Position numbers and translations under genes: made by a program
Assembly (NCBI GenBank): GCA_964016885.1
Contig: OZ024743.1
Location: 344,100,001-344,164,000 of the forward strand
DNA length: 64,000 nt
Reading direction: 5' to 3'
Source of the DNA: Eledone cirrhosa
Taxonomy: Eukaryota
The notes under the pieces: model-generated
The model's database searches: none
The model's input: only the letters and a program-made list of their open reading frames with translations
What the model was told of the DNA's origin: nothing
Part shown: piece by piece, positions 3,529 through 51,655 of the stretch
Position numbering within the stretch: the first letter of the stretch is position 1
Layout of the letters: the number at the start of each line of letters is the position of its first letter

Positions 3529-3744
3529 GATTTTTCAATAAATTTTTTTATTTGATAATTATAAAAGTTTAAATTTTGTGCTCAAGGCCCCAATCTTTTT
3601 GAGTGTCCTTTTCCGAAAGCAAATTTTGTGACCTTTTAAATAGTTAACAACAAAAATTTTCCATAATGGCAATTTTAAACAAACGAAAACAACAAACCTT
3701 TGCGGAGCTCACGATGGTACGATTTCCTACGCAGGTCGCCAATG

Positions 3745-4822: not shown

Positions 4823-4849
4823 ATGACAAATGTATAGAGGAAAATATTT

Positions 4850-5065
4850 TATGTCTCATATACCCACTCCCATATACAAATGTGAGTGTGTGTGTGTATA
4901 TATATAGTGTATATATATATATTATATATACATATATATGTATGTGTATATATATATATATTTATATATGTATATATATATATATATATATGTATATATG
5001 TGTGTGTGTGCTTGTGTGTGTGTGTGTGTTTATATATATATAAATACACACACACACACACACAC

Positions 5066-5108
<43 letters not shown>

Positions 5109-5245
5109 CTATATATATATATGTATATATAATATAGTATATGTATATATAGATATATATATTATAATATATATATATATATATGATATATATATATAAT
5201 ATATATCTATATATATATATATTATATATATATATATATATAACA

Positions 5246-5277
<32 letters not shown>

Positions 5278-5571
5278 CTATGTATATATATATACTATAC
5301 TATAATATGATAATATATGTAAGATATATATATAGTACTATATATATATATAGTAATATATANNNNNNNNNNNNNNNNNNNNNNNNNNNNNNNNNNNNNN
5401 NNNNNNNNNNNNNNNNNNNNNNNNNNNNNNNNNNNNNNNNNNNNNNNNNNNNNNNNNNNNNNNNNNNNNNNNNNNNNNNNNNNNNNNNNNNNNNNNNNNN
5501 NNNNNNNNNNNNNNNNNNNNNNNNNNNNNNNNNNNNNNNNNNNNNNNNNNNNNNNNNNNNNNAGAGAGAAA

Positions 5572-5610
<39 letters not shown>

Positions 5611-5766
5611 TGAGAGAGAGAGAGTGGAGAGAGAGAGAGAGAGAGAGAGTGTGTGGGAATGAGAGCGCGAGAGATAGATAGAGACATGAGAGAGGAAGAG
5701 ATAAATAGATGGATAGTGATAGAGAGATAAAGATAGAAAGATAGAGAGCGAGATATAGAGATAGAG

Positions 5767-5798
<32 letters not shown>

Positions 5799-5860
5799 GT
5801 AGATAGATAGATAGAGAGAGAGAGATAAATAGATAGAGAGAGAGAGAGGGAGAGTGAGAG
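4850..5860. repeat. (TA)n, (CA)n, (GA)n and (GATA)n microsatellites around a 200-N assembly gap (5363-5562)
   Basis: Seen directly. Confidence 0.95.
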
Positions 5861-6010
5861 AGAATCATAGTGCCCCAACCTGGCAATTAGCAGTAATCAT
5901 GCCAGATGTAGAAAAATCATGATTATTCCTCTGGAAATATTCCAAAATTAAATTAGATTTTATCAAAGAGAAGAAATTAAACCTTGCTGTGATTACAAAT
6001 TGACCCTGCA

Positions 6011-6069
<59 letters not shown>

Positions 6070-6249
6070 ACCCTGCATCACATCTATTTCACCTCTACCA
6101 CGCCTTCACACCACCACCCCCCCTTACATACCACCATACACTTTCACTTACCTCTCGCCGTAGACCTATCTGTCTTTCTCTCCCTCCCTCCCTCATGTCA
6201 CCAATCCTCACACATATATATGCCTTATTATCATCATCATCGACATCAC

Positions 6250-7455
6250 CTCACCACCACCACCACCACCACTGCTGTCATCACCGTCACCACCACCACT
6301 CACCACCACCACCACCACCACTGCTGTCATCACCGTCACCACCACCACTCACCACCACCACCACCACCACCACCATCATCACACCCACCACCACCTCCAC
6401 CACCACTACTGTCATCACCGTCACCACCACCACCACCACCACCACCACTACTGTCATCACCGTCACCACCACCACCACCACCACCAACACCACCACCACC
6501 ACCACCACCACTACTGTCATCACCGTCACCACCACCACCACCACCACCACTCACCACCACCACCACCACCACCACCACCACCACTACTGTCATCACCGTC
6601 ACCACCACCACCACCACCACCACCACCACCACTACTGTCATCACCGTCACCACCACCACCACCACCACCACCACTACTGTCATCACCGTCACCACCACCA
6701 CCACCACCACCACTCACCACCACCACCACCACCACCACCACCACCACTACTGTCATCACCGTCACCACCACCACACCACCACCACCACCACCACCACCAC
6801 CACCACCACCACCACTACTGTCATCACCGTCACCACCACCACCACCACCACCACCACCACCACTACTGTCATCACCGTCACCACCACCACCACCACCACC
6901 ACCACCACCACCACCACCACCACCACTACTGTCATCACCGTCACCACCACCACCACCACCACCACTCACCACCACCACCACCACCACACCACCACCACCA
7001 CTACTGTCATCACCGTCACCACCACCACCACCACCACCACCACCACCACTACTGTCATCACCGTCACCACCACCACCACCACCACCACCACCACCACCAC
7101 TACTGTCATCACCGTCACCACCACCACCACCACCACCACTCACCACCACCACCACCACCACACCACCACCACTACTGTCATCACCGTCACCACCACCACC
7201 ACCACCACCACCACCACCACCACCACTACTGTCATCACCGTCACCACCACCACCACCACCACCACCACCACCACCACTACTGTCATCACCGTCACCACCA
7301 CCACCACCACCACCACTCACCACCACCACCACCACCACCACCACCACTACTGTCATCACCGTCACCACCACCACCACCACCACCACTCACCACCACCACC
7401 ACCACCACCACCACCACTACTGTCATCACCGTCACCACCACCACCACCACCACCG
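6250..7455. repeat. Compound minisatellite: (CAC)n tracts punctuated by TACTGTCATCACCGT
   Basis: The same 15-mer recurs more than 20 times, separated by variable-length CAC runs. Confidence 0.95.
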
Positions 7456-7779
7456 CAAGCATTATCACAACCATCATCATCACGATCATCATCATCGCCA
7501 CGATCATTATTATCAAAATCCCGCCGAGGTTTACTTTGCCTTTCATCCTTACGGGGTCGATAAAATAAAGTACCAGTAATACACTGGGTAATTGCTGGCC
7601 TTGTGCCAAAAGTAGAAACAATTATTATCATTATCTTAGTCCCTACCATCACCGCATCATCATCATCATCATCAGTATCATCATCAATATTACTTTCACC
7701 ATCGCCATTGCTGCTATCAACACCATCATCACCATTGTGTCGTGTTTATATGAATTTTACTAAAATAATTGCCTGTGCG

Positions 7780-7975
7780 CGTGTTTGTGTGTTTGTGTGT
7801 TTGTGTGTGTTTGTGTGTTTGTGTGTGTTTGTGTGTTTGTGTGTGTTTGTGTGTTTGCGTGTGTTTGTGTGTTTGTGTGTGTTTGTGTGTTTGCGTGTGT
7901 TTGTGTGTTTGTGTGTGTTTGTGTGTTTGTGTGTGTTTGTGTGTTTGTGTGTGTTTGTGTGTGTTTGTGTGTTTG
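7780..7975. repeat. 18-bp GT-rich tandem repeat (GTGTTTGTGTGTTTGTGT)
   Basis: Seen directly. Confidence 0.9.
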
Positions 7976-8561
7976 TGCACGTCTATGTCTGTTTGTGCAT
8001 GTTTGTATATGTTTTTATGTGTATGTGTTTGTATGAATGTTTTTAGTGTGTCTGATAGTGTGTGAGTATGTGAGACATGTCTTGAAAATCAGGGACCAAG
8101 GATCTGAGCACCCTTATCTAACATGCACCATCGTTGATAAGGCCACTCCATAGATCAATGGAACATGAGGGTGGAGGCTTTGTCTAGCGTTCCAAATCCT
8201 TCTATTCTTTTATAGTTTGATTTGTTTCAGATTTAGACTGCAGCCATTTGCACCGGTATGACGGGATTTCACCGATCTTTTCGAGATACTAAGGCAGTTA
8301 AAAGGAGGTTAGATATATTTTTAAACTATCGTTACCAGAGGTTTATTCTTGATAGCTTCCAGACGTTCGAAAGTTCAAGGGTCACGACACAAATTCATAG
8401 AGTTATTTTCTTTACTATAGTTGTTCAGTCATTTTAGGTCTGCAACAAATCCGATCACGTGGCCTGCGTTGACTAATGGGAATCATAGTGCTATGTGGAC
8501 ATAACTTCATTCGTGAACTTATCTGTTTGAGACCTATCACACGTGCATCTTCCCCCACCAC

Positions 8562-8603
<42 letters not shown>

Positions 8604-8655
8604 GTTGGTGTACACAAAAGCCGAAACCGCATGGTGCCATGGTTGGGATTTTGCA

Positions 8656-8769
<114 letters not shown>

Positions 8770-8778
8770 TGTGCAAAA

Positions 8779-8837
8779 TCCCAACCGTGGGCGCCATGCG
8801 GTTTCGGCTTTTGTGTACACCAAGCCTTTTCAAGGGA
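8779..8837 (-). ncRNA. Type I hammerhead ribozyme motif, U3:A8 core variant
   Basis: UCCC UUGAAAA GGCUU-(11 nt)-AAGCC GAAA CCG-(caUGGCGCCca)-CGG UU GGGA: stems I, II and III all pair; cleavage triplet is GUU. Confidence 0.65.
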
Positions 8838-9081
8838 GTAGTCATATATATATATATACATATACATATACATATCTATATATATAAGTGTGTATGTGTG
8901 TATGTATGTGTCTGTGTCTATGTCTGTGTCCCTGTGTATGTGTTCGTATGTTTGTGTCACTTGGTTTACGACCACCACATGATATTTCTTCTGAGGTTAT
9001 TCTTTCTCTTACCCTCCATCAGCGGCGAAGACCTTACATATATACCTCCACATACACACACATATACAAGCACACACACAG

Positions 9082-9127
<46 letters not shown>

Positions 9128-9584
9128 ATAACACCATCAACCCCCCTCCATATTCCATGTTTAATATATTTTAAATATTTCAAATTTCAGCTATTTTTTA
9201 TATCCCTTTACTAGAATTAATCATTCAGAAAATGAGGGTGAATTTTGAAAATAAAATAGGAGCTTTGTGCTTACTACATAAAACATGCTATCCTCCACTT
9301 CTATATTAAGGAGACAATCTTGCACGAAACGCGCTCTATTTATACTTTGTATAGAACGGTCATATGGCCAACCAGTGAAATCATTTCGTCGCGAATGTTG
9401 TGCACTTTCTTATCCAATAAAAATTTCTCTTGAAGTTCAAATATTTCTAATATATGTCGATAAATTATTTTCACGTGTTCCTGCTTACATTATCAGCCGA
9501 AGATAGGGAATGAGAAATTTATAAAGTTTCATTTTCTAATAAATCATACTGTACGTACATACACACATATATTATATATTATAT

Positions 9585-9963
9585 ATCGGTAGAGGGTCGG
9601 ACACTATGCTTTGACGCATTGAGTTACGAGCCTTGCCATTCTGAGTTCAAATCCCGCCGAGGTTAACTTTGCCTTTCATCCTTACGGGGTCGATAAAATA
9701 AAGTACCAGTATTACACTGGGTATTTGCTGGCCTTGTGCCTAAAGTAGAAACAATTATATATTATATATATATAAGGCCGATGGGTTGGCAGTCTCGGTA
9801 GAGGTCGGACGCCATGCTTTGACGTATAGAGTTACGGCCCTTGTCATTCTGAGTTCAAATTCCACCGAGGTTAACTTTGCCTTTCATCCTTACGGGGTCG
9901 ATAAAATAAAGTACCAGTAATACACTGGTTAATTGCTGGCCTTGTGCCAAAACTAGAACAATT
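9585..9963 (+). mobile_element. Two tandem tRNA-derived SINE copies
   Basis: Match to the SINE unit at ~9585-9757 and ~9775-9963. A 3' half copy also lies at ~7515-7628. Confidence 0.9.
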
Positions 9964-9964
9964 A

Positions 9965-15545: not shown

Positions 15546-16350
15546 GCGGTGGATTGGCAGTATCGGTAGAGGGTCGGACACCATGCTTTCCAGCATAGTT
15601 ACGTCCCTTTACGATCTGAGTTCAAATCCCGCCGAGGTTGACTTTGCCTTTCATCCTTACGGGGTCGATAAAATAAAGTACCAGTAATGCACTGGGTAAT
15701 TGCTGGCCTTGTGCCTAAAGTAGAAACAATTATTATACTTATATGGCGGTGGATTTGGCAGTATCGGTAGAGGGTCGGACACCATGCTTTGACGCAGAGT
15801 TACGGCCCTTGCCATTCTGAGTTCAAATCCCACCGAGGTTAACTTTGCCTTTCATCCTTACGGGGTCGATAAAATAAAGTACCAGTAATACACTAATATA
15901 ATTGCTGGCCTTGTGTCAAAAGTAGAGACAATTATTATACTTACTTTAAGGGCGGTTAATTGGCAGTATTGGTAGAGCGTTAGACACCATGCTTTGCAGC
16001 ATAGAGTTACGGTACTTTACGGTCTAAGTTCAAATTCCGCCAAGGTTAACTTTGTCTATCATCCTTACGGGGTGGATAAAATAAAGCACCAGTAACGTAC
16101 AGGGGTCGATTTAATCGCCTTTCCCTTCCCCACAAATTATTGGTCTGCCTATACTAGAAAGCATTATTATATTTACTTTAAGGCGGTGAATTGGCAGTAT
16201 CGGTAGAGGGTCGGACGCCATTCTTTGACGCTTAGAGCCCTTGCCATTCTGAGTTCAAATCCCGCCGAGGTTAACTTTGCCTTTCATCCTTACGATGTCG
16301 ATAAAATAAAGTACCAGTAATGCACTGCGTAATTGCTGGCCTTGTGCCTT
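15546..16350 (+). mobile_element. Head-to-tail array of four SINE copies (the third is a longer variant with GGGGTCGATTTAATCG)
   Basis: Units start at ~15546, 15745, 15950 and 16182, with spacers ATTATTATA(C/T)... Confidence 0.9.
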
Positions 16351-16775
16351 GCTACTTTTGTCACAAGGCCAGCAATTCCCCAGTGTATTACTGGTACTTT
16401 ATTTTATCAACCCCGTCAGGATTAAAGGCAAAGTTAACCTCAGCGGGATTTGAACTCAGATCATAAAGGGCCGTAACTCTATGTTGCAAAGCATGGCGTC
16501 CGACCCTCTACCAATACTGCCAATCCAGATAATGTAAAGAGCCTTTACTAAATGCTGCAAAGTATTATCTCCGACGTTGTAACTGCCCGAAAATTATTTC
16601 TAATTTTGATATAAGGTTAGCAACTTAGATTATATTCACGACAGTACATTACTGGTACTTTATTTTATCAAGTTCAGAAGGATGAAAGGCAAAGTGAACC
16701 TCGGCAGGATTTGAACATAACGGGCCAACTAAATGCTTGAAAGCACTCTATTTGACGGTCTAACGATTCTCCAAT
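16351..16775 (-). mobile_element. Two minus-strand SINE copies; the first joins the array tail-to-tail
   Basis: Reverse-complement unit at 16351-16526; older divergent copy at ~16590-16775. Confidence 0.8.
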
Positions 16776-35327: not shown

Positions 35328-35380
35328 TACATTATAAAACTAGAAGAACATAAATACATAGAGGCATAGATACATACATA

Positions 35381-37467
35381 TCTTGGATGATAGAGGCCCT
35401 CCAACTTTCTAAAGTCCCAGACATTATTGTCAGAGCCATAGAGAGGCTGTCTTCTTCTTGGGATACTATCCTAAGTTTAAAGACAGAGAGGGAGGACTCT
35501 ATTTTCACTGATAAAATAAAATATTGCAGGGGTATATTTCAGGAGGACAGTCTCTCTGTGATATTATTCATCTTGTCATTAAACCCCTTGTCCTTTCTGC
35601 TCAAGAAATGTGAGGGATACATCATTGGCTCACAGGAGGACAGAAATACGAACCTAACCCAAAATTTATTTGTGGACGATCTGAAACTCTATGCCAAGAA
35701 CATGGATGGGATGAAGAAAGATCTTGACCTGGTTACAACGTTCTCAAAGGATATAGGAATGGAGTTTGGCCAAGATAAATGCTCATACATGACTGTAAAG
35801 AGGGTACAAACAACAACCCAATCTAGCAACATTGTCATCAATGGCCTAACTGTTTCACCGATATCTGATGAGGACTGCTACAGATACCTGGGGATAGATG
35901 AGAACATATCCTATAATGGTATCTGTAATAAAGAACGCGTAACCAAGGAATACTACACCCGATTAAGAAAGATCTAGTCATCGGAACTCTCTGCGCAAAA
36001 CAAAACAGTGGCTCACAATGTGTTTGCTGTGCCTGTCCTAACACCAACGTTTGGAATACTCAATTTGACGATAGACGAAATCCGAGCAGTTGATGTTGGA
36101 ACTCGAAAAATACTGAACAACACTGGAAACTTCCACATCAACAGTGACATAGACCGCCTTTACTTGAAACGTAAGCAGGGAGGCAGAGGCCTAATATCAG
36201 TCCAGACAACATTTGAATGTCGCATCATATCTCTCCGACAACATCTACGAACCTCGAAGCGTATGAACCCGTTTCTCGAGCAAGTCTATCTGCATGAAAC
36301 AGATAAGATCATGAGAGTTGGGAAGGAACTCCTCGAGAGTTATTCCCTGTGTGATAATCAAAAACTCACACCCAGGGATGTCGCTCAGCAGTATCGCAGT
36401 GAATCCATGGATGAAAAACTGCATGCCTATCAGCAAAAAAAAAATCATGCATGGATATGTTGCCAGGAAGCTCCAGAGTGAGAGTAATATAGATAAGGAA
36501 AGTAGTCTATCTTGGACCAACAACCGCTATATTGTCTCCCACTTTGAAGGATACGCTTTTGCAATCCAGGAACAGGAGATTAGCACGAAATACCTGATTC
36601 ATAAAAGAGATAGGAATGCAGGCAAAACACCTAGATGTGATAACAAGTGCAGACTCTGCAGAACTAACATCGAGGATATCACCCATGTCATCAGCAGCTG
36701 TCCAAAGATGTCACCGCGGTACTATCTACCTATGAGGCATGATGTAGTGGCCAAAACACTGTACAATGAAGTTCGTAAAAAAGATAGCCCCGATAATAAA
36801 CACCACAAAAGCTACAGCAATGTGGAAGACATCCAGATACATAATATGAAAGAGTACTGGTGGAATGTTCCAGTAAAAACCCCAATAAAATGCAGGCATA
36901 ACAGACCAGATATTATGATATGGGACAGGGAGAAGAAAGCATGCACAGTAGTGGAAATTAGCTGCCCAGCAGATGTCAATATAATATCAAAGATTAGTGA
37001 AAAGGAGAAGATTTATGCAGAACTGATGAGAAATCTGCAGATACTCCACCCTGATTACACCTTCAGATTTATGCCTGTGATTATTGCGGCACTGGGATAT
37101 GTTAGTAACTGCCTCAATACAAATCTTGAGAAGCTAGGCTTCACAGGAACGGAAAGAACACAACTAGTTAGGAAATTACAAGTACAATCCATTAATGGAA
37201 CAGTAAAAATATGTAAGACATTCCAAAAATTGTTCATCTAATAACTGCATATATACATATACAGATGCAAAGCATATACACATGCACACATACAACTCAA
37301 AATACACACCCACACATACAATAACATCCATATCTACACATGCATGCATACATACATATCTACTTAGTTGATGTTGTGTAAATTCCAATGAGAGAGTCTT
37401 GTGTCTATGTTAGAAACCGACTCTCTCTCTATTGGTAAAACTTTGTGAAATTATAAAACCAGAAGAA
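35381..37467 (+). mobile_element. 5'-truncated R4/Dong-clade LINE, subfamily A (RT, CCHC, RLE), disrupted
   Basis: RGIFQEDSLS, FVDDLKLY, YRYLG, CRLC...HVISSC, RHD, RPDI, VEIS; stop at 35975-35977; frameshift in the A-run near 36440. Confidence 0.9.
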
Positions 37468-37539
37468 CATACATACATAGATACATACATACATATATGC
37501 ATACATACATACATATATATATACATTCATACATACACA

Positions 37540-38049
37540 ACAAACGAGGAAGAATATATTGAGACAGATGGCACTAAGGAATACTGGTGGAACTTGAAAA
37601 TAAAAACTGCCACCAAATTAAAGCACAACCGGCCTGAAACTGTTGTTTGGGACCACACATTGAAAACGTGTTCTGTTGTGGAGATCAGCTGCCCACTTGA
37701 TGTAAACGTTGTCAGAAAAATACAGGAGAAGGAGGACATCTACGGACCATTGATGAGGAGTTTACAAATCCAGTATCCAAGATACACCTTTAGCTTCATA
37801 CCCATCATTATTGGAGCTACGGGTTATATACCAACCCGCTTGGACCAAAGTACGACTGAACTTGGATTTGCTGACAAAGAGCGCAGCTCCCTAATTCATA
37901 GTCTACAAATGGCTGCGATAGCTGGCACCTTCAAAATTTGCAAAACATTCTTGCGATTCAAGGGATGACAATTTCTTTTCTTTTACAACCTTGCCACCAG
38001 GAAGGTGGCCGGTCAAAAAAATATACTCGAAATTAAGAGAAAGAGATAA
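37540..38049 (+). mobile_element. 3' fragment of Dong/R4 subfamily B (copy B1)
   Basis: KEYWWN...HNRP...VVEISCPLD...KICKTFL; ends AAGAGAAAGAGATAA|CATAC. Confidence 0.85.
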
Positions 38050-38599
38050 CATACATACATAGATACATACATACATATTTATATGTGTGTACATAGACGG
38101 TAAGGCTCCAAGATAATTTCACACTCTTCAATACCGTTTTTCGCCAACTTTTAATGGTATTTAAAACACGACAATATAAAACTCCCCGCCTTAGAAAGAA
38201 ATCTATTTATTTACTCAGCTATTAGCTACAAATCCTCGAAGTTCTTCTATGGGGTGGGACCTATCTAGACCTTTACTCTCACTTTAACCTCCTTACACTT
38301 TATATTAACCTTGGTATTAAATACAGAAATTAGGAACTCTGATCTAGAGCCCTTTCCAAAGATGAAAGGCTTATCAGAAGCATACACACTCCCATCACTC
38401 ACGCCCCTTCCCCCCAAGTATTTGTTAACGGAGAAGTATTTATCAGGGAAACTTGTAGGTTAGTCTAGCATCGGAGGTTAACAAGAAAAGATATGTTGTA
38501 GGGCTTTAATATATAACACTTTATTTACAATGTGAAAATAGTTTCGATTCAGTCACCAGTAGACAAATACAAGAAATATTCACAAAGGAAATTGTGTAT

Positions 38600-42072: not shown

Positions 42073-42212
42073 AAAATATATATATACATATATACATATA
42101 TACATACATACACATGCATACATATATACATACATACATACATACATACATAATAAAAATATACCAATGTGTGTTTCTGTGCATGTGAATAATTATGTGT
42201 ATTATGTATGAA

Positions 42213-42243
<31 letters not shown>

Positions 42244-42366
42244 ATGTATGTATGTATGTATGTATGTATGTATGTATGTATTTATGTATGTATGTATGTA
42301 TGTCTGTATGTATTTTTGTATGTATGTGTGCATGTATGTATGTACTTACGTACATACGTATGTATG

Positions 42367-44125
42367 TTATCTCTTTCTCTTAATTTCGAGTATATTTTTT
42401 TGACCGGCCACCTTCCTGGTGGCAAGGTTGTAAAAGAAAAGAAATTGTCATTCCTTGAATCGCAAGAATGTTTTGCAAACCTTGAAGGTGCCAGCCATCG
42501 CAGCCATCCGTAGACCATGAATTAGGGAGCGGCGCTCCCTGTCCGCAAATCCAAGCCCAGTCACACCCTGGTCCAAGCGGGTCCGTACATAACCCGCAGC
42601 TCCAACAATGACGGGCACGAAGCCAAAGGTTTATCTCGGACACTGGACCTGCAAACTCCTCATCAATGGTCCGCAGATGTCCTCCCTCTTCTGCATTCCT
42701 CTGACAACGTTTACATCAAGTGGGCAGCTGATCTCCACAACAGAACACGCTCTCAATGTGTGGTCCCAAACAACAATATCAAGCCGGCAGTTCTTTAACC
42801 CGGTGGCAGCCTTCATTTTCAGGCTCCACCAGTATTACCCAGCGCCATCTGTCCCAATATATTCTTCCACGTTTGTTGCCAACCTTGTCTTCGGAAGTGC
42901 GCCACAGATGGCTCCAGCTATCGCATCGTGCCCCACGGGGAGGTAGTAGCGAGACGACACCCCCTCGCAGCCGGCAACAATATGGCTTACATCCTCGATC
43001 TTTGTTTTACATAGCCTACATTTATTGTCAGCTGCTGGCCTTCCCCTTCTTGTTGCTGTATTGCATAGAGATATCCCTCAAGGTGTGATGTCATAAACTT
43101 GTCGGAACTCCATGCCAGGTCCCCCGAGTAGTCTATCCCCTCCATGGTCTGTGCCCTACGTCTCAAGTATCCATGCACAACTTTTTATGTAAATTGGTCA
43201 ATTTTTTCATCTTGTTTGAACATTGAATAGGATCTTCCGATTTCTCTGGGTGAGAGATTTATATCAGGTTTTATTCCATATCTCTCCTCCAGATCAGTGG
43301 CTATTCTAATGATATTTTTTTTCCATGCTCATAAACCTGGGCAAGATGGTTGCCAACCTTTTTCCTCTGTTGAAGGTGTTGCCTCAGTGTCACCATCCGG
43401 GTCCCATATGTTGTTAACATGGACCTTACACCCCGGGCACCTTCCTTGCGTGAGAAGTATAGCCTATCCACATCACCACTGACGTTAAAGTTCCCAGCAA
43501 CACTGAGAAGCCTGCGAGCTCCAACATCCATCTCACACAGTTCCCGCAATTACCAGCTCAGCAGGCCAAACGTTGGCGTTAGAATTGGCACAGCATAACT
43601 ATTGTGGGCAATGTATTTGTTGTACGCTGACAGTTCTGATGACCATATTTTCTTTACTCTTCTGAGGTATTCAGTTCCGGTTCTCTCCTTCTTTATGGGT
43701 CCATCATATCTGACACCCTCATCCTGTCCAAGATATCTGTAGTTGTCACCTGACTGCAGAGGCCGCACTGTCAGGCCGTTCATCTCTAGATTTCTAGAGG
43801 AGGGCACAGCTCTTCCACGCTCCACCGCCAAATATGGACACCTGGACTCACCAAATTTCATTTTGATGTCTGTTGAAAATTGTGTAACGACGTCCAATTG
43901 TTTCTTGATGTCATTGATATTTGGCCCATACAACTTCAGGTCATCAACAAAGAAAAGATGGGAGATACTTCTGGACCCACTTCTTTGTCCACCTTGTTTC
44001 CTGAGTAGGTAAGATAGTGGATTTAGTAAGAGAACGAAGAGTAGCACTGACAAGCTATCACCCTGAAAGATGCCCTTCTGGTAATGTATCCTATCAGTCC
44101 CAACTTGCTCCTTCTCACCTCTAAG
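42367..44125 (-). mobile_element. 5'-truncated Dong/R4 subfamily B copy (B2), A->G hypermutated
   Basis: GIFQGDS, FFVDDLKLY, YRYLG, MHGYL, VVEISCPLD; (TATG)n on both sides. Confidence 0.9.
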
Positions 44126-44238
44126 GTATGTATGTATGTATGTATGTATGTATGTATGTATGTATGTATGTATGTATGTATGTATGTATGTACGTATGTA
44201 TGTATGTATGTATGTATGTATGTATGTATGTATGTATG

Positions 44239-46863
44239 TTTAGCAGTATTAGTTGTAGATGTTATCGCCACTTTAGCAGGGTGGTAGAATCAGTGGTCGT
44301 TAGTTGCCAGTGTGGTAAGTGATAGTATCCTCGTTGGATTATCTTGTTGACATAGACGTGAGGGAAGGTCCCTCGATCTATTTACCATCTATTCACAATA
44401 TTCCTTTCGTCAGGTCGCCAATTCCAGCAGCATGGATTAAAGATGTTATTGATACACGAGTAATTAGAGATGAAATGTCTGTTTATTTATATAGTTGAAG
44501 TTACAGGTAAAAAGAGGTTACAAAAGGGAATGTGCCATTGCACCGTTAAGCCGGCGAGGCTAGGGGTGCAATATCTCACTGCTACATTATGCGTGTTGCT
44601 GGCTTGAAGTTTCCGGTACAAGATCGAGATTCTTCAAATCTTCGCGGTGAATTTCTTCCTCAGGGCGCGTAGGGATACATCCTCTTCTACTGGCGCTGAT
44701 TGGCTGAACTGAGCCAAATCACGCACAGAGAATGTATGTGAGCCCGCGGAATGTAGGTCACTACATCACCTCCAACCAGATTTTCAGCCGAAAATCGATA
44801 ACGAAGAAACCAAGGACTCACATATTAAATCAGCAAGAACAAATGCTGAAAGAGCACATCAGTGAAAAAAATAATTGAGCAGAAGGTTGCATGCAAGAAC
44901 AAAAAATGAGGCGCTACGGGCCGTGCTGAGCCGCTGTGTCAAATGACCAGTTGTTTTGTTGTTTATACGTGACCGCCAAAGGTCTAACAAAAAACGGATA
45001 AAGTCTGACATGGGCGAAGTTGCTGTTCTTGCATTAAATGTTAATGGTAAGCGTTGTACCAGTAGCTGTGAACGAAGCTATTATGGTAGTTTACCAGTGC
45101 TGGCGAGAAAATGATGGCCCCCAGATGTATTGTCGAATGTGCTGTGGAGCCAGGAAAAAATGGCTGGTTGCTTTGTAAAGAACAAAAGACAAGTTTAATT
45201 TCTAGGTGGGTTGCAGTGTAAATTCCATAATTTGGGCGAATCCACAGAAGTGGCCGAAATGCTAACAAGTCCAGTTCAATTTGTTGCTTTCCCAGCGAGT
45301 CGGGCAAAAACAATAAGACGGATGGCCGTCATGGACGATCAGTGTGCAACGAGATGCGAAGCTGTTTGAGTTCAGCGGCAATTAGTATTCTCGTGTTGCG
45401 GTGACTGTTTAAATCCAGTGGATTAAGCTCTGTGAGCTGCCAGCATCTCAACCAGGTGAAAAGGGACTCGCAGAATATTACGTTTGAAGAACATATACCA
45501 AGAACAACATGTTGGTGTGTGATAAAAAAAATGTGTGCATATGCAGGCTTGTAAAACAGCAAAGAATGTGAATGAACAAAAACCATGAGCAAGCAAATAG
45601 CAAAAGAGCACAAAACAAGTAAATGCATTCTACAAAGAAATATGTGAATGTAACAAACTGATAATTCAAAGTCAATCTAGGGGAGCAGAGAAATTGCTCA
45701 ATAAGTTCAAAGTTTTTCAAAGTCAAATAGTTCACACATCACCAGTGTACAGACACTAGTTCTATCTGAAAACTAAAAAAGAAGTTTGTTAATGCCGTTA
45801 GGGGTTAGCTGTATGGTGTTTTTGTGAGATTTCGTGGCCATTTTACCGTCCCGAAGGTTTTGTTGCTTATTGTTAAAGCAAAGTCAAAGAATCTTCTGTA
45901 GAGTAGGAGTCACCAAATATGGCAGTCACGTCTGACGCCATAATGGTGAGAAACTACTGTCTCAATTTCTCGCGTCCCTGTGGTAACGAGACAGAAGGTA
46001 TGGTGGTTGCGTCGGTAAAGTTACAAGCCGTTTTGAAATTTCCGATGTGTGGTGGTTGGCGTTGGTAAGGTTATGAAGCTGCCACTCACTGTTCCCTGTA
46101 TTGGTCAGTGGTTAAACAACGCTGTCGCTGCTGCTGTCATTGTTGTTGTCAAGCGTAGCCATGACATGTCGGTAGCCATCTTGAAATTTTTTCGTGGCGA
46201 AAAAGCTTTTGAAATACTGCTAATTTTTCAAAAATCTTAAAAGGAATATTCTGGATTTTCGCAAGTTGCGACGTGGCAATAAAAGTTAAACTGAATGAAT
46301 AAGAAGGGCTGCGTGATATTCTTACTTCGGTCACCACTTTAGCAGTATTAGTTGTAGATGTTATCGCCACTTTAGCAGGGTGGTAGAATCAGTGGTCGTT
46401 AGTTGCCAGTGTGGTAAGTGATAGTATCCTCATTGGATTATCTTGTTGACATAGACGTGAGGGAAGGTCCCTCGATCTATTTACCATCTATTCACAATAT
46501 TCCTTTCGTCAGGTCGCCAATTCCAGCAGCATGGATTAAAGATGTCATTGAGACACGAGTAATTAGAGATGAAATGTCTGTTTATTTATATAGTTGAAGT
46601 TACAGGTAAAAAGAGGTTACAAAAGGGAATGTGCCATTGCGCCGTTAAGCCGGCGAGGCTAGGGGTGCAATATCTCACTGCTACATTATGCGTGTTGCTG
46701 GCTTGAAGTTTCCGGTACAAGATCGAGATTCTTCAAATCTTCGCGGTGAATTTCTTCCTCAGGGCGCGTAGGGATACATCCTCTTCTACTGGCGCTGATT
46801 GGCTGAACTGAGCCAAATCACGCACAGAGAATGTATGTGAGCCCGCGGAATGTAGGTCACTAC

Positions 46864-46864
<1 letters not shown>
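44239..46864 (-). mobile_element. Non-autonomous LTR element (Gypsy-like ends), 527-bp LTRs at 44239-44765 and 46338-46864
   Basis: LTRs differ at about 4 positions; minus strand starts TGTAG; primer-binding-site-like TGGTGACC follows the 5' LTR; purine-rich GGTTGGAGGTGA precedes the 3' LTR; TATG on both flanks. Confidence 0.85.
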
Positions 46865-46894
<30 letters not shown>

Positions 46895-46944: not shown

Positions 46945-47420
46945 TCAGGTCGTTGGCGACTAAACTGGCAACCCCACCAAGGTTTCTTGGTGAGGAGGGT
47001 GACTTTGGACATCCTGCAGGACTAAAAACAAAACCTTGTCAAAGGGCAAGGGAGCTCTTAAGAGTCAATAGCTATCCAAAATCACCGGGAGAGATGACCC
47101 CTTAGCCTTTGTTCTTCTTTTTGGTAAATATCATCTTGGTTAAGAGAGTGGGACTGGCTTTGTGCAGTGCCTTTGCTCACTATAAAAGCTTCACAGCACA
47201 GGCATTGCTTTATATCTGGAGATCTCTCTGCACTTGTCGTCACATGGTACCATGGGCCCTGCACTATGTGTCAATAATGGTCACAAGTGTCGTCTTTGTA
47301 CCAGAGTTTTCAAGTCGCTGGCTGGACTAAAAAGTCACATTCGCTCAGCGCATCGGTAGGGGTTCTCCTACATGGATATAAAGTAGTGGCCGTACTCGAA
47401 AACGAGTTGGCAGCCACCAT
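46945..47420 (+). mobile_element. Non-autonomous RTE-related retroposon in (TATG)n
   Basis: Sibling of 25003-25490, with extra 5' sequence and an internal deletion. Confidence 0.65.
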
Positions 47421-47437
47421 GTATGTATGTATGTATG

Positions 47438-47755
47438 TTTTCTCTTTCTCTTAATTTCGAGTATATTTTTTTGACCGGCCACCTTCCTGGTGGCAAGTTT
47501 GTAAAAGAAAAGAAATTGTCATCCCTTGAATCGCAAGAATGTTGAAGATGACAGATGTTGCAACCATTTCTAGTCTATGAATTAGTGAGTTGCGTTCTTT
47601 GTCCGCAAATCCAAATTCAGTCATACTTTGGTGTAAACGTGTTGGTATATAACCTGTAGCTCCAATAATGATGGGTATGAAGCTGAAGGTGTATCTTGGA
47701 TACTGGATCTGCAAACTCCTCATCAATGGTCCGTAGATGCCCACCTTCTCCTGTT
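47438..47755 (-). mobile_element. 3' fragment of Dong/R4 subfamily B (copy B3)
   Basis: IYGPLMRSLQIQYPRYTFSFIPIIIGATGYIP; same 3' end as B1 and B2. Confidence 0.85.
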
Positions 47756-47777: not shown

Positions 47778-50700
47778 TTCTTCTGGTTTTATAATTTCAC
47801 AAAGTTTTACCAATTGAGAGAGAGTCGGTTTCTAACATAGACACAAGTCTCTCTCATTGGAATTTACACACCATCAACTAGGTAGATATGTATGTATGCA
47901 TGCATGTGTAGATATGGATGTTATTGTATGTGTGGATGTGTATGTTTTGAGTTGTATGTGTGCATGTGTATATGCTTTGTATCTGTACATATGTATATGC
48001 AGTTATTAGATGCAACATTTTTGGAATGTTTTACATATTTTTACTGTTCAATTAATGGATTGTACTTGTAATTTTCTAACTAGTTGTGTTCTTTCTGTTC
48101 CTGTGAAGCCTAGCTTCTCAAGATTTGTATTGAGGCAGTTACTAACATATCCCAGTGCCCCAATAATCACAGGCATAAATCTGAAGGTGTAATCAGGGTG
48201 GAGTATCTGCAGATTTCTCATCAGTTCTGCATAAATATTCTCCTTTTCACTAATCCTTGATATTATATTGGCATCTGCTGGGTAGCTAATTTCCACTACT
48301 GTGCATGTTTTCTTCTCCCTGTCCCATATCATAATATCTGGTCTGTTATACCTGCATTTTATTGGGGTTTTTACTGAAATATTCCACCAGTACTCTTTCA
48401 TATTATGTACATGGATGTCTTCCACATTGTTGTAGCTTTTAATGTGTTTATTATCGGGGCTATCTTTTTTACGAACTTCATTGTACAGTGTTTTGGCCAC
48501 TACATCATGCCTCATAGGTAGATAGTACCGCGATGACATCTTTGGGCAGCTGCTGATGACATGGGTGATATCCTCGATGTTAGTTCTGCAGAGTCTGCAC
48601 TTGTTATCACATCTAGGTGTTTTGCCTGCATCCCTATCTCTTTTATGAATCAGGTATTTCGTGCTAATCTCCTGTTTTGGATTGCAAAAGCGTATCCTTC
48701 AAAGTGGGAGCCAATATAGCGGTTGTTGGTCCAAGATAGACTACTTTCCTTATCTATATTACTCTCACTTTGGAGCTTCCTGGCAACATATCCATGCATG
48801 ATTTTTTGCTGATAGGCATGCAGTTTTTCATCCATGGATTCACTGCGATACTGCTGAGCGACATCCCTGGGTGTGAGTTTTTGATTATCACACAGGGAAT
48901 ATCTCTCGAGGAGTTCCTTCCCAACTCTCATGATCTTATCTGTTTCATGCAGATAGACTTGCTCGAGAAGCGGGCTCATACGCTTCGAGGTTCGTAGATG
49001 ACCAGATGATGACCAGATCTTTCTTAATCGGGTGTTGTATTCCTTGGTTACGCGTTCTTTATTACAGATACCATTATAGGATATGTTCTCATCTATCCCC
49101 AGGTATCTGTAGCAGTCCTCATCAGATATCGGTGAAATAGTTAGACCATTGATGACAATGTTGCTAGATTGGGTTGTTGTTTTTCCCCGCTTTACAGTCA
49201 TGTATGAGCATTTATCCTGGCCAAACTCCATTCCTACATCCTTTGAGAACGTTGTAACCAGGTCAAGATTTTTCTTCATCCCATCCATGTTCTTGGCATA
49301 GAGTTTCAGATCGTCCACACAGAAGTTATGGGTTAGTTTCGTATTTCTGTCCTCCTGTGAGCCAATGATGTACCCCTCACATTTCTTGAGCAGAAAGGAC
49401 AAGTGGTTTAATGACAAGATGAACAATATCACAGAGAGACTGTCCCCCTGAAATATACCCCTGCAATATTTTATTTTATCAGTGAAAATAGAGTCCTCCC
49501 TCTCTGTCTTTAACCTTAGGATAGTAGCCCAATAAGAAGACAGCCTCTCTATGGCTCTGACAATAATGTCTGGGACTTTAACAAGTTGGAGGGCCTCTAT
49601 CATCCAAGAGTGGGGAACAGAATCGAAAGCTTTCTTGTAGTCCAGCCAGACTGTAGTCATATTCCTCCTAAGTTGTCGCACCTCCGACATCGCAGTTTTG
49701 TTGATTAGGAGTTGTTCAGCACATCCCCAAACCACTTTCTTTCCAGCTGCTTGTTCATCTGTGATGATGTTATTATTTTCACAGTGATCTTGGAGGAATA
49801 GGTTCAGGCAGGCTGTATACATTTTATACATCAGGTTCTGGCATGCAATGGGTCGGTAGTTTTTTGCCAAGTGGGTGTCTTTGTTCTTGGGGACCAGTAA
49901 CGTTTGTGCTAATGTCAACCATTCTGGTATAAGTGTATCTCCCTTAAGAACTTGTTGGTAGAGGTCAGTAAGATACCTCCGATAGAATATCAGTTTTTTG
50001 TACCAGTAGCCGACAATCATGTCTCTTCCTGGTGTTTTCTTATCTTGGAGTTTTCCTATCACAGTCTCAAGGGTACCCTCACTTATTTCATATGTTTTTG
50101 TTGTAGTGTAGGAGCAATAGTTCTTTCGGATTTCTCTTAGCCACACTGCATCTTGGTTGAAATTCTTCTTTTCACCCCATATTTTTCTCCAAAAGGAATC
50201 TATGTCTTTCTGGGATGGGGCCTCAGTGACACTTATTATTTTGGCCTTCATATCTCTATAGACTGATGTTTGGTTTCGTCTGAATCTTTTATTAAGCATT
50301 TTTCTCTCATCTAACTTCTTCAGGTATCGGCGTTTTTCGCTAACAGCTCTCAATTCTTGTTTGAGGGTGATCAGCTTATATTGGAGAGTTCTGGTTCTAC
50401 TGTTACCAAACATCATCTCTATTTTATTTTTCACTCTTTGTTGGTGAGGAGTGAGGTTTTTTTGTGTTTGTTTGCATGTAAGGAGCATTATCACATGTCC
50501 TATGTTTTTTCGTAGGTCAGCACTCTTTTTTTCTATTTTAGTTATATATGATGGTATTTTTGGCGGTGCTTTGTTCTTGTTAATATCTCTGCTATCACCA
50601 AGATAATGCTTCACTGTCATTGCTAAGGCATATAAACAGGCGTTGATTTGCCAAAATGTTGGGGTTTTTATCCGTCGTAAATATTCATCCCCTATTTCGT

Positions 50701-51655
50701 CAATAACACGTAGTATTTCATTATTTGGCTTTTTATTCACCATTGTCATTTTAACACGTTCAGCCAGAGAGATATTTATACATGAGTTAATTTCTCTCTG
50801 GAAGATTTCGTTGAGGGAAATTTTCAATTGTTTATACTTTTGATAATCATTATCGATAGTATTTTCCACAACAGTCGAGGTAGACTCGGATGGTATACGT
50901 GGTGTCACATTTATTCGATTATTATTATTATTTCCTCGATTATTATTATTATCGATAGTGTTTTCCCCAGCATTCGAGGTAGACTTAGATGGTACACGTG
51001 GTGTCAAATTTCTTACAGGCATAGTTGTTTCAAGGCGCTGTTCGACCTGGCTGCTAGGAAGTCTAGTAGCATGGCGATCTGTAGCACGTGTTGTTGATTC
51101 CATGTTTGTTGTGGGGGACTTACAATTAATAATATTTATCTTATTTTTACGTTCAACAAACGTCGCTTGTTGGCGTAATTGTTTCGCTGTGAAATAATTT
51201 ACCTCTGAGTGCATTTCGTCCCAGTGTAGCTTCATTCTATTCATATAGCCAATGGAGGGATTGCTTTTTGCCATTTTATAACAATTAAATAAATCATTAT
51301 TAAGTTCGCAACTCCAAGAGAAATGCGATTTATAATTTCGGTTTCTTCTGTAGCTACAACTGAATAAAGTTTGATTACCTTCTTTGTTATTTGTCTTCGA
51401 TACTTTCTTAATTTTCTTGTTGATGTTGTGTTCAGCCATGCTGTTTGTAGCAAATCTTTGTAAAATTAATTATGTATTTAGTCGGATATCTCTACGAATT
51501 CGAATAAAAGGTGTCTTCAGAAGGAATAGTTAGAAGAATAACCAGTTATTCAACCTGGCTGTAGTTGTGGCATTACTGTCGGAGATAGTATTCATCTTAA
51601 ATTTAATAAATAGTCTCCCACGCCAAAATATGCGACTGATCGCATTGAATGACTT
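47778..51655 (-). mobile_element. Near full-length R4/Dong-clade LINE, subfamily A
   Basis: 5' UTR bounded by (TATG)n at 51656; long ORF; RLE region at 48010-48650; 3' UTR matching 37240-37467. Confidence 0.92.
48650..51439 (-). CDS. Reverse transcriptase ORF (929 aa) of the Dong/R4 element, with an internal deletion and a frameshift before CCHC/RLE
   Basis: KTPGRDMI, NYRPIAC, WLDYKKAFDSVPH, RGIFQGDSLS, CVDDLKLY, YRYLG; lacks the segment present at ~35985-36240 of the + copy. Confidence 0.9.
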   Translation of the reverse strand: MAEHNINKKIKKVSKTNNKEGNQTLFSCSYRRNRNYKSHFSWSCELNNDLFNCYKMAKSNPSIGYMNRMKLHWDEMHSEVNYFTAKQLRQQATFVERKNKINIINCKSPTTNMESTTRATDRHATRLPSSQVEQRLETTMPVRNLTPRVPSKSTSNAGENTIDNNNNRGNNNNNRINVTPRIPSESTSTVVENTIDNDYQKYKQLKISLNEIFQREINSCINISLAERVKMTMVNKKPNNEILRVIDEIGDEYLRRIKTPTFWQINACLYALAMTVKHYLGDSRDINKNKAPPKIPSYITKIEKKSADLRKNIGHVIMLLTCKQTQKNLTPHQQRVKNKIEMMFGNSRTRTLQYKLITLKQELRAVSEKRRYLKKLDERKMLNKRFRRNQTSVYRDMKAKIISVTEAPSQKDIDSFWRKIWGEKKNFNQDAVWLREIRKNYCSYTTTKTYEISEGTLETVIGKLQDKKTPGRDMIVGYWYKKLIFYRRYLTDLYQQVLKGDTLIPEWLTLAQTLLVPKNKDTHLAKNYRPIACQNLMYKMYTACLNLFLQDHCENNNIITDEQAAGKKVVWGCAEQLLINKTAMSEVRQLRRNMTTVWLDYKKAFDSVPHSWMIEALQLVKVPDIIVRAIERLSSYWATILRLKTEREDSIFTDKIKYCRGIFQGDSLSVILFILSLNHLSFLLKKCEGYIIGSQEDRNTKLTHNFCVDDLKLYAKNMDGMKKNLDLVTTFSKDVGMEFGQDKCSYMTVKRGKTTTQSSNIVINGLTISPISDEDCYRYLGIDENISYNGICNKERVTKEYNTRLRKIWSSSGHLRTSKRMSPLLEQVYLHETDKIMRVGKELLERYSLCDNQKLTPRDVAQQYRSESMDEKLHAYQQKIMHGYVARKLQSESNIDKESSLSWTNNRYIGSHFEGYAFAIQNRRLARNT

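What the first reader, a model, noticed from the sequence alone, without database searches (positions are those of the whole stretch)
42470..42875. Retrotransposon copy with dense strand-specific A->G changes: probable ADAR hyper-edited RNA written into the genome
Seen: aligning B2 (minus strand) by eye to sibling B1 (37540-37945) gives about 45 A->G substitutions on the element's sense strand over ~400 nt, against about 1 G->A and roughly a dozen other changes. Examples: CCAAATT->CCGGGTT, AGAAAAATAC->AGAGGAATGC, CTTCATACCCATCATTATT->CTTCGTGCCCGTCATTGTT, GACAAAGAG->GACAGGGAG. The third copy B3 (47438-47755) agrees with B1 at almost all overlapping sites, so the G states are derived in B2. In A-runs, an A directly after G is usually spared. 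Established: ADAR converts A to I in dsRNA, RT reads I as G, ADAR disfavours a 5' G, and coleoid cephalopods edit RNA very heavily; CpG decay and APOBEC would give C->T/G->A instead. Inference: an inosine-rich LINE transcript was retrotransposed in the germline, making RNA edits heritable DNA.
Basis: partly seen in the sequence, partly recalled or inferred. Interest (0 to 1): 0.93.

Follow-up and report, generated by a model that had tools for sequence, protein, structure and literature searches.

The report
RNA-edited jumping gene fossil in DNA
A copy of a jumping gene in this animal genome, probably an octopus relative, carries about a hundred A-to-G changes on one strand only, the scar expected if an RNA-editing enzyme rewrote its RNA before that RNA was copied into the germline DNA, and four other copies show the same scar independently.

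Summary
Confirmed, and larger than reported. B2 (window 44126-42366, minus strand) is a 5'-truncated R2-type (RLE) non-LTR retrotransposon. Against 99 sibling segments not chosen for likeness to it, it has 104 A>G of 597 A and 0 T>C of 399 T, about 40 times background. The changes are patchy, codon-blind and avoid a 5' G, as ADAR does.

Motif screens found four more independently hypermutated copies among at least 3,956 (16, 22, 37 and about 260 A>G). Two T>C control screens found none. All five spare the last ~110 nt (0/100 against 29/90 favourable A just upstream). A public run holds one 154-nt B2 patch exactly, so read support is partial. The host encodes an ADAR2-type deaminase with its catalytic motifs.

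Best reading (0.87): ADAR hyper-edited the LINE RNA, probably paired with antisense RNA, and target-primed reverse transcription fixed the inosines as G in the germline.

Precedents are APOBEC-edited endogenous retroelements and ADAR-edited avian retroviruses. Ten literature searches found no germline LINE case. This scan noted the same pattern in L1 copies of other genomes (unchecked), so it is probably not cephalopod-specific.

The parts
42366..44126 (-). B2: 5'-truncated (~1.76 kb) copy of a ~4.1-4.3 kb single-ORF RLE-type non-LTR retrotransposon. It covers the 3' part of the RT domain, the CCHC knuckle, the endonuclease region and the 3' UTR; the frame is broken by stops and indels.
   Evidence: (RVT_1 E 1e-7 on 43553-44122)
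42480..42972 (-).
43121..43156 (-). Short edited patch (10 of 23 A in its 60-nt bin), flanked by almost unedited stretches
43383..43571 (-). Edited patch; 43451-43604 is matched letter for letter by a contig of public run X5 (12 private A>G plus 4 other B2 differences)
   Evidence: (record 21)
43678..43888 (-). Edited patch in the RT region
44091..44101 (-). Most 5' edited sites (3 A>G), close to the truncation point
42366..42479 (-). Unedited 3'-terminal ~110 nt (end of ORF, stop at 42450-42448, A-rich 3' UTR). It is unedited in all five hypermutated copies and predicted to be structured (z -2.84).
43047..43049 (-). Site of a ~28-nt deletion private to B2; no other copy carries the junction
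44127..44238 (-). (TACA)n microsatellite at the 5' junction: the family's insertion target
42200..42365 (-). (TACA)n-type microsatellite at the 3' junction
37538..38055 (+). B1: unedited, short 5'-truncated sibling, inverted relative to B2 (0 A>G in 162 A)
47419..47754 (-). B3: unedited, more diverged short sibling (2 A>G in 89 A)

Best explanation
B2 is the DNA copy of a LINE RNA that had been hyper-edited by ADAR. Steps: (1) A source element is transcribed in the germline or early embryo (inferred). (2) Parts of its RNA form long double-stranded RNA with a second molecule, either antisense RNA from one of the thousands of mostly 3'-end copies or an inverted neighbour in a read-through transcript (inferred; the element has no long internal inverted repeat). 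(3) ADAR deaminates many A to I in patches, sparing A after G (the pattern is shown; the enzyme is inferred). (4) The 3'-terminal ~110 nt stay unedited, because the element's protein covers them, because they fold on themselves, or because RNAs edited there cannot start reverse transcription (the sparing is shown; the cause is inferred). (5) The reverse transcriptase, made from unedited RNA or before editing, primes at a (TACA)n site and reads I as G. The edits become G:C pairs in a new, 5'-truncated insertion that is then inherited (I read as G is established biochemistry; the insertion anatomy is shown). The event is rare but recurrent: at least 5 of at least 3,956 copies, of different ages.
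For: One-class, one-strand spectrum: five copies pooled give 362 A>G, 5 T>C, 5 A>T and 3 A>C, and up to 73% of A are changed in 100 nt. 5' context pooled over the five copies: T 84/184, A 172/423, C 63/300, G 34/280 (p 3e-21); 3' G 82/219 vs 28-29% for the other bases (p 0.05). This matches the pan-metazoan ADAR motif, 5' U/A favoured, 5' G disfavoured, weak 3' G (PMC9989829, passages). Codon-blind. Independent recurrences share 0 non-A>G changes in 10 of 10 pairs. The changes are on the element's sense strand in 5 of 5 copies, and the two T>C screens gave no hypermutated copy. The changes stop at the element: neighbouring repeats at the C11 locus show 1-5 mixed changes per 200 nt, and the two 528-bp repeats beside B2 differ at 4 mixed sites. 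The G states are DNA: a genomic inverted duplicate at C11 shares 30 A>G and 5 other changes with its parent, and run X5 holds a 154-nt B2 patch at depth 10 with 0 differences. The host has an ADAR2-like domain with the HAE, PCG and SCSDK motifs. In squid, editing outside the nervous system is directed at repeats (PMC9068888, passages).
Against: No RNA was observed, so neither editing of this family's transcripts nor the antisense partner is shown. Predicted local pairing of the unedited RNA does not favour edited sites (P unpaired 0.72 vs 0.65, p 0.09), so the double-stranded substrate is assumed. The 3' G preference is absent in B2 alone (p 0.64). Read support is partial. X5's kind is not on record and it may be the assembly's own sample. 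Its word share (0.32) equals what sibling copies alone would give (0.31), and B2 alleles had zero depth at other listed sites such as 42699, 42800, 43156 and 43764 (the tool says holes prove nothing). The A>G screens (4 in this family) outnumber the T>C screens (2), were placed at sites edited in B2, and the T>C motifs have no baseline count. In HeLa cells ectopic human L1 RNA showed no editing over >2.5 kb (PMC5224506, passages).
Confidence: 0.87

Rival explanations
1. ADAR or another adenine deaminase acted on DNA: on the DNA strand of an RNA:DNA hybrid (an R-loop at the inserted copy, or an insertion intermediate), or on the new second strand.
For: It would give the same chemistry and the same 5' context. 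Editing of the DNA moiety of RNA:DNA hybrids by ADAR1/2 is proposed in PMC11817618 (passages).
Against: Editing the cDNA in the TPRT hybrid would give sense-strand T>C, which is 0 in B2 and 5 in all five copies. R-loops from host transcription should hit either strand and run into flanks; neither is seen. Unrepaired inosine at 40-70% of A in DNA is hard to reconcile with base-excision repair (own knowledge). The spared 3' end is fixed to the element's coordinates in five loci.
Confidence: 0.05
2. Error-prone DNA synthesis: dG inserted opposite template T during second-strand synthesis by the element's RT under skewed dNTP pools, or by a polymerase eta- or iota-like enzyme whose hot spots are also WA.
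For: It predicts sense-strand A>G in newly inserted copies, and polymerase eta favours A after A or T (recalled; one search shows only the cited titles). Background copies have a mild A>G excess, 0.43% vs 0.29%, p 0.007.
Against: Purity: 362 A>G against 8 A>T or A>C, whereas these polymerases also make many A>T, A>C and indel errors (own knowledge). Density reaches 58-73% of A per 100 nt. Other substitutions do not cluster near the edits (10 of 37 within 3 nt, 9.2 expected). The background excess has no ADAR or WA context (5' G 0.46%, A 0.43%, T 0.54%).
Confidence: 0.04
3. Assembly or polishing artefact, for example edited RNA reads or low-quality consensus written into the reference.
For: Only 12 of B2's 104 private A>G were matched in outside data, in a run of unrecorded kind.
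Against: Five separate loci with genomic flanks on five contigs; a DNA-level inverted duplicate that shares 30 edits; an exact 154-nt match at depth 10 that includes non-A>G private changes; none of 99 sibling segments affected.
Confidence: 0.02
4. B2 belongs to a GC-richer subfamily, or gained G by selection or GC-biased gene conversion.
For: B2 shares a few variants with older siblings (9 of 37 non-A>G changes with L025); about 10 of the 114 raw A>G are family polymorphisms.
Against: 0 T>C and no A>C or T>G excess; no copy above 89% identity among 40 scored; the edited copies share no non-A>G change; amino-acid changes are not avoided.
Confidence: 0.01

Closest known systems
APOBEC 'DNA editing' of endogenous LTR retroelements (Knisbacher and Levanon, PMC4866542; passages and part of the supplements seen)
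   Same: A deaminase hypermutates a retroelement intermediate that still integrates. It leaves a clustered, strand-specific, context-dependent scar with up to hundreds of sites per copy in the germline genome.
   Different: There the change is G>A from C-to-U on cDNA, in LTR elements of vertebrates. Other cluster types were 1,680-fold rarer and 19 invertebrates were at noise level. Here it is A>G with an ADAR context, in a non-LTR element of an invertebrate, and implies editing of the RNA before reverse transcription.
ADAR-linked A-to-G hyperediting of avian retroviruses RAV-1 and avian leucosis virus, and of HTLV-2/STLV-3 in culture (as summarised in PMC8586724, passages; the 1995 original was not held)
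   Same: A-to-I hyperediting of a retro-transcribed RNA read out as A>G clusters after reverse transcription.
   Different: Those are exogenous viruses, seen in culture or infection and called rare. Here the element is an endogenous non-LTR retrotransposon, inherited, recurrent across its history, with a fixed unedited 3' end.
A-to-I hyper-editing of repeat-derived dsRNA in metazoan and coleoid transcriptomes (PMC9989829, PMC9068888; passages)
   Same: Same neighbour motif, young repeats as targets, and sense-antisense pairing as a known source of duplex.
   Different: Those edits exist only in RNA; here they are in the genome.
R2-group (RLE) non-LTR retrotransposons; by its microsatellite target probably the R4/Dong clade (clade assignment recalled, not tested)
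   Same: Single ORF with RT, CCHC knuckle and restriction-like endonuclease motifs; best solved-structure matches are R2 proteins; 5' truncation; for R2Bm a 3' UTR core is required for TPRT (PMC10499050, passages).
   Different: It inserts in (TACA)n rather than 28S rDNA and has thousands of copies.
Deaminase-driven reverse-transcription hypothesis of A>G strand bias (PMC11817618, passages)
   Same: Edited RNA is copied back into DNA, scoring as A>G at WA sites.
   Different: That is a proposal about in-place repair at host loci, argued from diffuse biases; this is ordinary retrotransposition of a heavily edited template, visible in single copies.

Membership tests
ADAR hyper-editing footprint | Clusters of a single change, A>G, on the transcribed (sense) strand | tested here: met
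   104/597 A>G vs 0/399 T>C in B2; 362 vs 5 over five copies
ADAR hyper-editing footprint | 5' neighbour U/A favoured, G disfavoured | tested here: met
   T 0.46, A 0.41, C 0.21, G 0.12, p 3e-21; motif as in PMC9989829
ADAR hyper-editing footprint | Weak 3' G preference | tested here: inconclusive
   Absent in B2 (p 0.64); 0.37 vs 0.28-0.29 pooled, p 0.05
ADAR hyper-editing footprint | Long double-stranded RNA substrate | tested here: inconclusive
   No internal inverted repeat above 16 nt and longest predicted helix 12 bp, so a cis fold is excluded; an antisense partner could not be tested without RNA data
ADAR hyper-editing footprint | Host encodes an ADAR deaminase with its catalytic motifs | tested here: met
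   PF02137 matches at four loci; C6 domain has HAE, PCG, SCSDK and matches human ADAR2 at E 1.5e-101
ADAR hyper-editing footprint | Inosine shown in RNA, or loss of the pattern without ADAR | not testable with these tools
APOBEC-edited retroelement | Sense-strand G>A clusters in an APOBEC motif | tested here: not met
   3 G>A in 1,677 columns
RLE-type (R2 group) non-LTR retrotransposon | Single long ORF with non-LTR RT followed by CCHC knuckle and RLE motifs; no LTRs | tested here: met
   ORFs of 850-1,011 aa in siblings; RVT_1; best PDB matches are R2 proteins, with the CCHC/RHD stretch aligned weakly; Pfam has no hit on the endonuclease stretch, which rests on motifs read from translations
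RLE-type (R2 group) non-LTR retrotransposon | 5'-truncated copies with a common 3' end at a specific target | tested here: met
   Median aligned length 914 nt, 33 of 99 at 1,500 nt or more; (TACA)n at both ends of B2, C3, C14 and C22 and at the 3' end of C11
R4/Dong clade | Placement with R4 and Dong in an RT phylogeny | not tested
   No named reference sequences were fetched; the label is recalled from the microsatellite target

The most novel reading that the evidence does not exclude
ADAR is a recurrent germline mutator of LINEs whose products can be read from genomes like fossils. Each hypermutated copy records where a retrotransposition-competent RNA was double-stranded, and the invariant unedited 3' ~110 nt is an in vivo footprint of the RNA element that the LINE protein binds or needs to start TPRT. 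Because A>G cannot create a stop codon, such copies could in principle stay coding, which would make RNA editing a heritable source of retroelement variation in animals generally. No daughter copies of an edited element were found here.
Probability: 0.45. Interest if true: 0.88.

Novelty: new variant of a known kind. Interest (0 to 1): 0.75.

Why it matters
RNA edits are normally lost with the molecule. Here they appear to have been written into inherited DNA, at least five times in one LINE family. Whether ADAR edits retrotransposition-competent LINE RNA in the germline is open: human L1 RNA showed no editing in HeLa cells (PMC5224506), and a defence role against transposons in cephalopods is called unexplored (PMC9068888). 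These copies make that testable from genome sequence alone, give a rate (at least 0.13% and under about 3% of copies), and show that an RLE-type reverse transcriptase can copy RNA in which up to two thirds of the A in a stretch are inosine. The spared 3' end points to the cis element needed for insertion. The practical point is that such copies look old or foreign in repeat dating although they are neither.

Tried and rejected
Cis RNA structure as the substrate: the longest inverted match inside a full element is 16 nt, the longest predicted helix in the 3' 1.3 kb is 12 bp, and edited A are not more paired than unedited A. Rejected.

In-place pairing of B2 with inverted B1: B1 covers only 42878-42331, while 60 or so edits lie upstream, and no inverted family copy lies in the 10-kb loci of the C3, C14 and C22 copies. 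At C11 the inverted arm carries the changes on the element's sense strand and shares them with its parent, so it was duplicated after editing.

Search for B2's source lineage through its 28-nt deletion: only B2 matched.

Pervasive low-level editing of the family: background A>G in 99 segments is 1.5 times T>C but has no ADAR context. Not supported. L057 (7 A>G in 161 A, 12 other changes, 3 of them in the 3' UTR) was not counted as edited.

Screen for 3 or more of 6 G in one 29-mer: only B2. Its T>C mirror gave L066, an ordinary old copy with 8 T>C and 4 A>G among 50 differences.

The 3' UTR screen required only one G by my design slip. Of 24 matches, 20 aligned to the family and 4 did not. None of the 20 is hypermutated, the closest being L086 with 7 A>G in 63 A beside 10 other changes; five are near-identical copies on C13.

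Runs X1, X2 and X11 gave no clear B2 haplotype among the rows shown; 4 of 13 listed runs were laid.

The protein atlas gave no useful taxon for the ADAR domain.

A DNA-transposon control was not run.

Two papers were not held: the Nature Communications paper on DNA editing of retrotransposons looked up by DOI and Hajjar and Linial 1995.

Full report
Setting. The window is G000:C4:344,100,001-344,164,000 of a 3.0-Gb animal genome in 1,796 contigs. The host is probably an octopod. Among the 120 listed homologues of the element's protein, the highest identity is to an Argonauta hians protein, 66% over half the query. That is indirect, and nothing below depends on it.

The element. B2 lies on the minus strand from 44126 to about 42366, between two (TACA)n tracts. 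It is the 3' 1.76 kb of a 4.1-4.3 kb element. Siblings carry stop-free frames of 850-1,011 aa with an RT domain, followed by a CCHC knuckle and endonuclease-like motifs read from translations. The best solved-structure matches are R2 proteins. It is therefore an RLE-type non-LTR retrotransposon. R4/Dong is the likely clade, but that label is recalled and untested. A 22-mer near the 3' end is matched by 3,956 places in the genome, a lower bound on copy number.

The observation. The whole copy is affected. Against 31 sibling alignments it has 114 A>G of 606 A, 0 T>C and 37 other changes; without 32 polymorphic columns, 104 of 598 against 0 of 407. Those siblings were chosen for likeness to B2, so I built a second reference from 90 loci taken in coordinate order on C1 (90 of the 100 places listed, of 3,956; 99 segments, 94.6 kb; 84 polymorphic columns dropped). 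B2 again has 104 of 597 and 0 of 399. Background is 0.43% A>G per A and 0.29% T>C per T, and none of the 99 segments is hypermutated. B2's other divergence (1.6%) is near the 90th percentile of the family (1.7%), so it is one of the older copies and has been inherited for a long time (inference).

The pattern. Changes come in patches separated by almost untouched stretches. They ignore the code: 29 of 149 synonymous and 75 of 409 non-synonymous sites, p 0.81. They depend on the 5' neighbour (A 0.26, T 0.27, C 0.13, G 0.07; p 2.6e-6) and not on the 3' neighbour in B2 alone. Zhang et al. describe 5' U/A favoured, 5' G disfavoured and a weaker 3' G preference across metazoans (PMC9989829, passages). 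Other substitutions do not gather near the A>G sites.

It recurs. Three exact screens for an AA>GG doublet at sites edited in B2 returned 4, 2 and 3 places; about 0.07 would be expected by chance for the first. Apart from B2 itself, which matches by design, these are four loci, and all four are hypermutated:
- C3: near full length, 37 A>G and 5 T>C in 3,782 columns, 35 of the 37 in the last 1.2 kb.
- C14: 22 and 0 in 315 columns.
- C22: 16 and 2 in 460 columns.
- C11: 188 and 0 in 1,650 columns, about 260 over the whole 3' segment.
No pair of the five shares a non-A>G change (10 of 10 pairs), while edited sites overlap 1.3 to 6 times more than independent placement predicts, partly through selection and context. 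Their other divergence runs from 0.35% to 1.8%, so the events are spread over the family's history. Pooled, they hold 362 A>G, 5 T>C, 5 A>T and 3 A>C, with 5' rates T 0.46, A 0.41, C 0.21, G 0.12. Of three non-B2 hits in the later screens two were recaptures, which suggests about 5-10 such copies in all; the firm bounds are at least 5 of 3,956 and none of 99. Two T>C control screens gave one ordinary old copy and nothing; they are fewer than the A>G screens and lack a baseline count. One screen in the sister LINE family of the window gave one short copy on C24 with 6 A>G (2 imposed) and 1 T>C in 226 columns, a weaker case with no baseline.

The 3' boundary. In four copies the last 110 nt hold 0 edits in 92 favourable A against 55 of 170 in the 300 nt upstream. 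With the fifth copy added and the imposed doublet removed, it is 0 of 100 against 29 of 90 (p 2e-11). That stretch folds better than its shuffles (z -2.84, 3 of 200) while the two upstream stretches do not. For R2Bm a small 3' UTR core is bound by the protein and single changes there nearly abolish TPRT (PMC10499050, passages). Shielding, self-folding and a filter at initiation all fit; I cannot tell them apart. Twenty family copies with a single A>G in the 3' UTR are not hypermutated.

Is it in DNA? At C11 a genomic inverted duplication copied the 3' 700 nt with its flank; the duplicate shares 30 A>G and 5 other changes with its parent, and the four discordant calls sit at a 27-nt deletion. 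Run X5 holds a 154-nt contig at depth 10 identical to B2 at 43451-43604, across 12 private A>G and 4 other B2 differences. Against this, X5's kind is unrecorded, it may be the assembly's own sample, its word share is what siblings alone would give, and B2 alleles were absent at other listed sites. Read support is real but partial, and nothing is known about population frequency.

Mechanism. Sense-strand A>G confined to retrotransposed sequence, with the ADAR context, is what reverse transcription of inosine-containing RNA gives (inosine is read as G: PMC5224506, passage). The host has four loci with ADAR-type deaminase domains; the C6 one keeps its catalytic motifs and matches human ADAR2. The element cannot form a long duplex alone, so the partner must be another RNA or an inverted neighbour at an unknown source locus. 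Most genomic copies are 3' fragments, which would explain why the two long copies are edited only towards the 3' side: C3 in its last 1.2 kb, and C11 not in the 1.6-kb 5' piece that lies inverted beside it. That step is inference. Replacement of part of an existing copy by edited cDNA cannot be excluded. DNA-level deamination, error-prone second-strand synthesis, artefact and a GC-rich subfamily are weighed under rivals and total about 0.12.

Comparison with the known. It works like APOBEC editing of endogenous retroelements, but fails that family's defining G>A test. In that screen of LTR elements from 123 species other cluster types were negligible (PMC4866542, passages; two of three supplementary files searched without a mention of ADAR or A-to-G, one of them cut and one file not searched). 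ADAR-linked A>G hyperediting is described for avian retroviruses and for HTLV-2/STLV-3 in culture (PMC8586724, passages). Ten full-text searches (listings, plus passages of ten papers: PMC2873906, PMC4866542, PMC9989829, PMC9068888, PMC5224506, PMC8586724, PMC10499050, PMC5035012, PMC11817618, PMC5974252) found no report of inherited ADAR-hypermutated LINE copies. The library lacks most subscription journals, and two relevant papers were not held, so absence from print is not established. Unchecked notes of this scan describe the same pattern in L1 copies of other genomes and A>G-rich LINEs in a dinoflagellate. They are not evidence, but they argue against treating this as a cephalopod peculiarity.

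Verdict. Observation confirmed and extended; interpretation supported at about 0.87; a new variant of a known kind; interest 0.75.

Noticed in passing
L110 (G000:C11:53213500-53223400), 3596-9720: The most edited copy (about 260 A>G, up to 73% of A per 100 nt) lies in a rearranged locus: its unedited 5' 1.6 kb sits inverted downstream, and its 3' 700 nt plus flank are duplicated in inverted orientation with the edits. Possibly a better showcase than B2.
   Followed up: partly
L069 (G000:C3:144721500-144731400), 4265-8400: A near full-length edited copy with only 0.35% other divergence; its first 926 codons are stop-free and the frame shifts after that.
   Followed up: partly
window 44239-46865: Two direct 528-bp repeats (44239-44766 and 46338-46865, 4 differences) enclose ~1.6 kb without a long ORF, inserted in the (TACA)n tract at B2's 5' end: a young, non-coding LTR-like element.
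   Followed up: no
window 35354-37241 (+) and 47900-51469 (-): Two copies of a second RLE-type LINE family (about 69% DNA identity to family B in RT), each followed directly by a short family-B copy; one keeps a 939-aa frame. The pairs are inverted around B2.
   Followed up: partly
L081 (G000:C24:4430496-4433517): Short copy of the second family with 6 A>G (two doublets, two TAG sites) and 1 T>C at its ORF end, and an unedited 3' UTR: a probable lightly edited copy.
   Followed up: partly
many loci, e.g. L069, L071, L075, L077; window 47109-47438: A ~500-bp repeat and the two LINE families pile up in stacks inside (TACA)n tracts, so the microsatellite is a shared target that each insertion renews.
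   Followed up: no
window 3744-4820, 7516-7635, 9571-9964, 15550-16716 and others: A ~180-bp SINE-like repeat occurs about 15 or more times in the window, often in tandem; it was not screened for A>G outliers.
   Followed up: no
L100-L104 (G000:C13:13.04-13.08 Mb): Five near-identical old family-B fragments within 40 kb: a segmental tandem array.
   Followed up: no
window 5363-5562: A 200-N gap in the window.
   Followed up: no
99 family segments on C1: Ordinary copies show a mild sense-strand excess of A>G over T>C (0.43% vs 0.29%, p 0.007) without ADAR context; cause unknown.
   Followed up: partly
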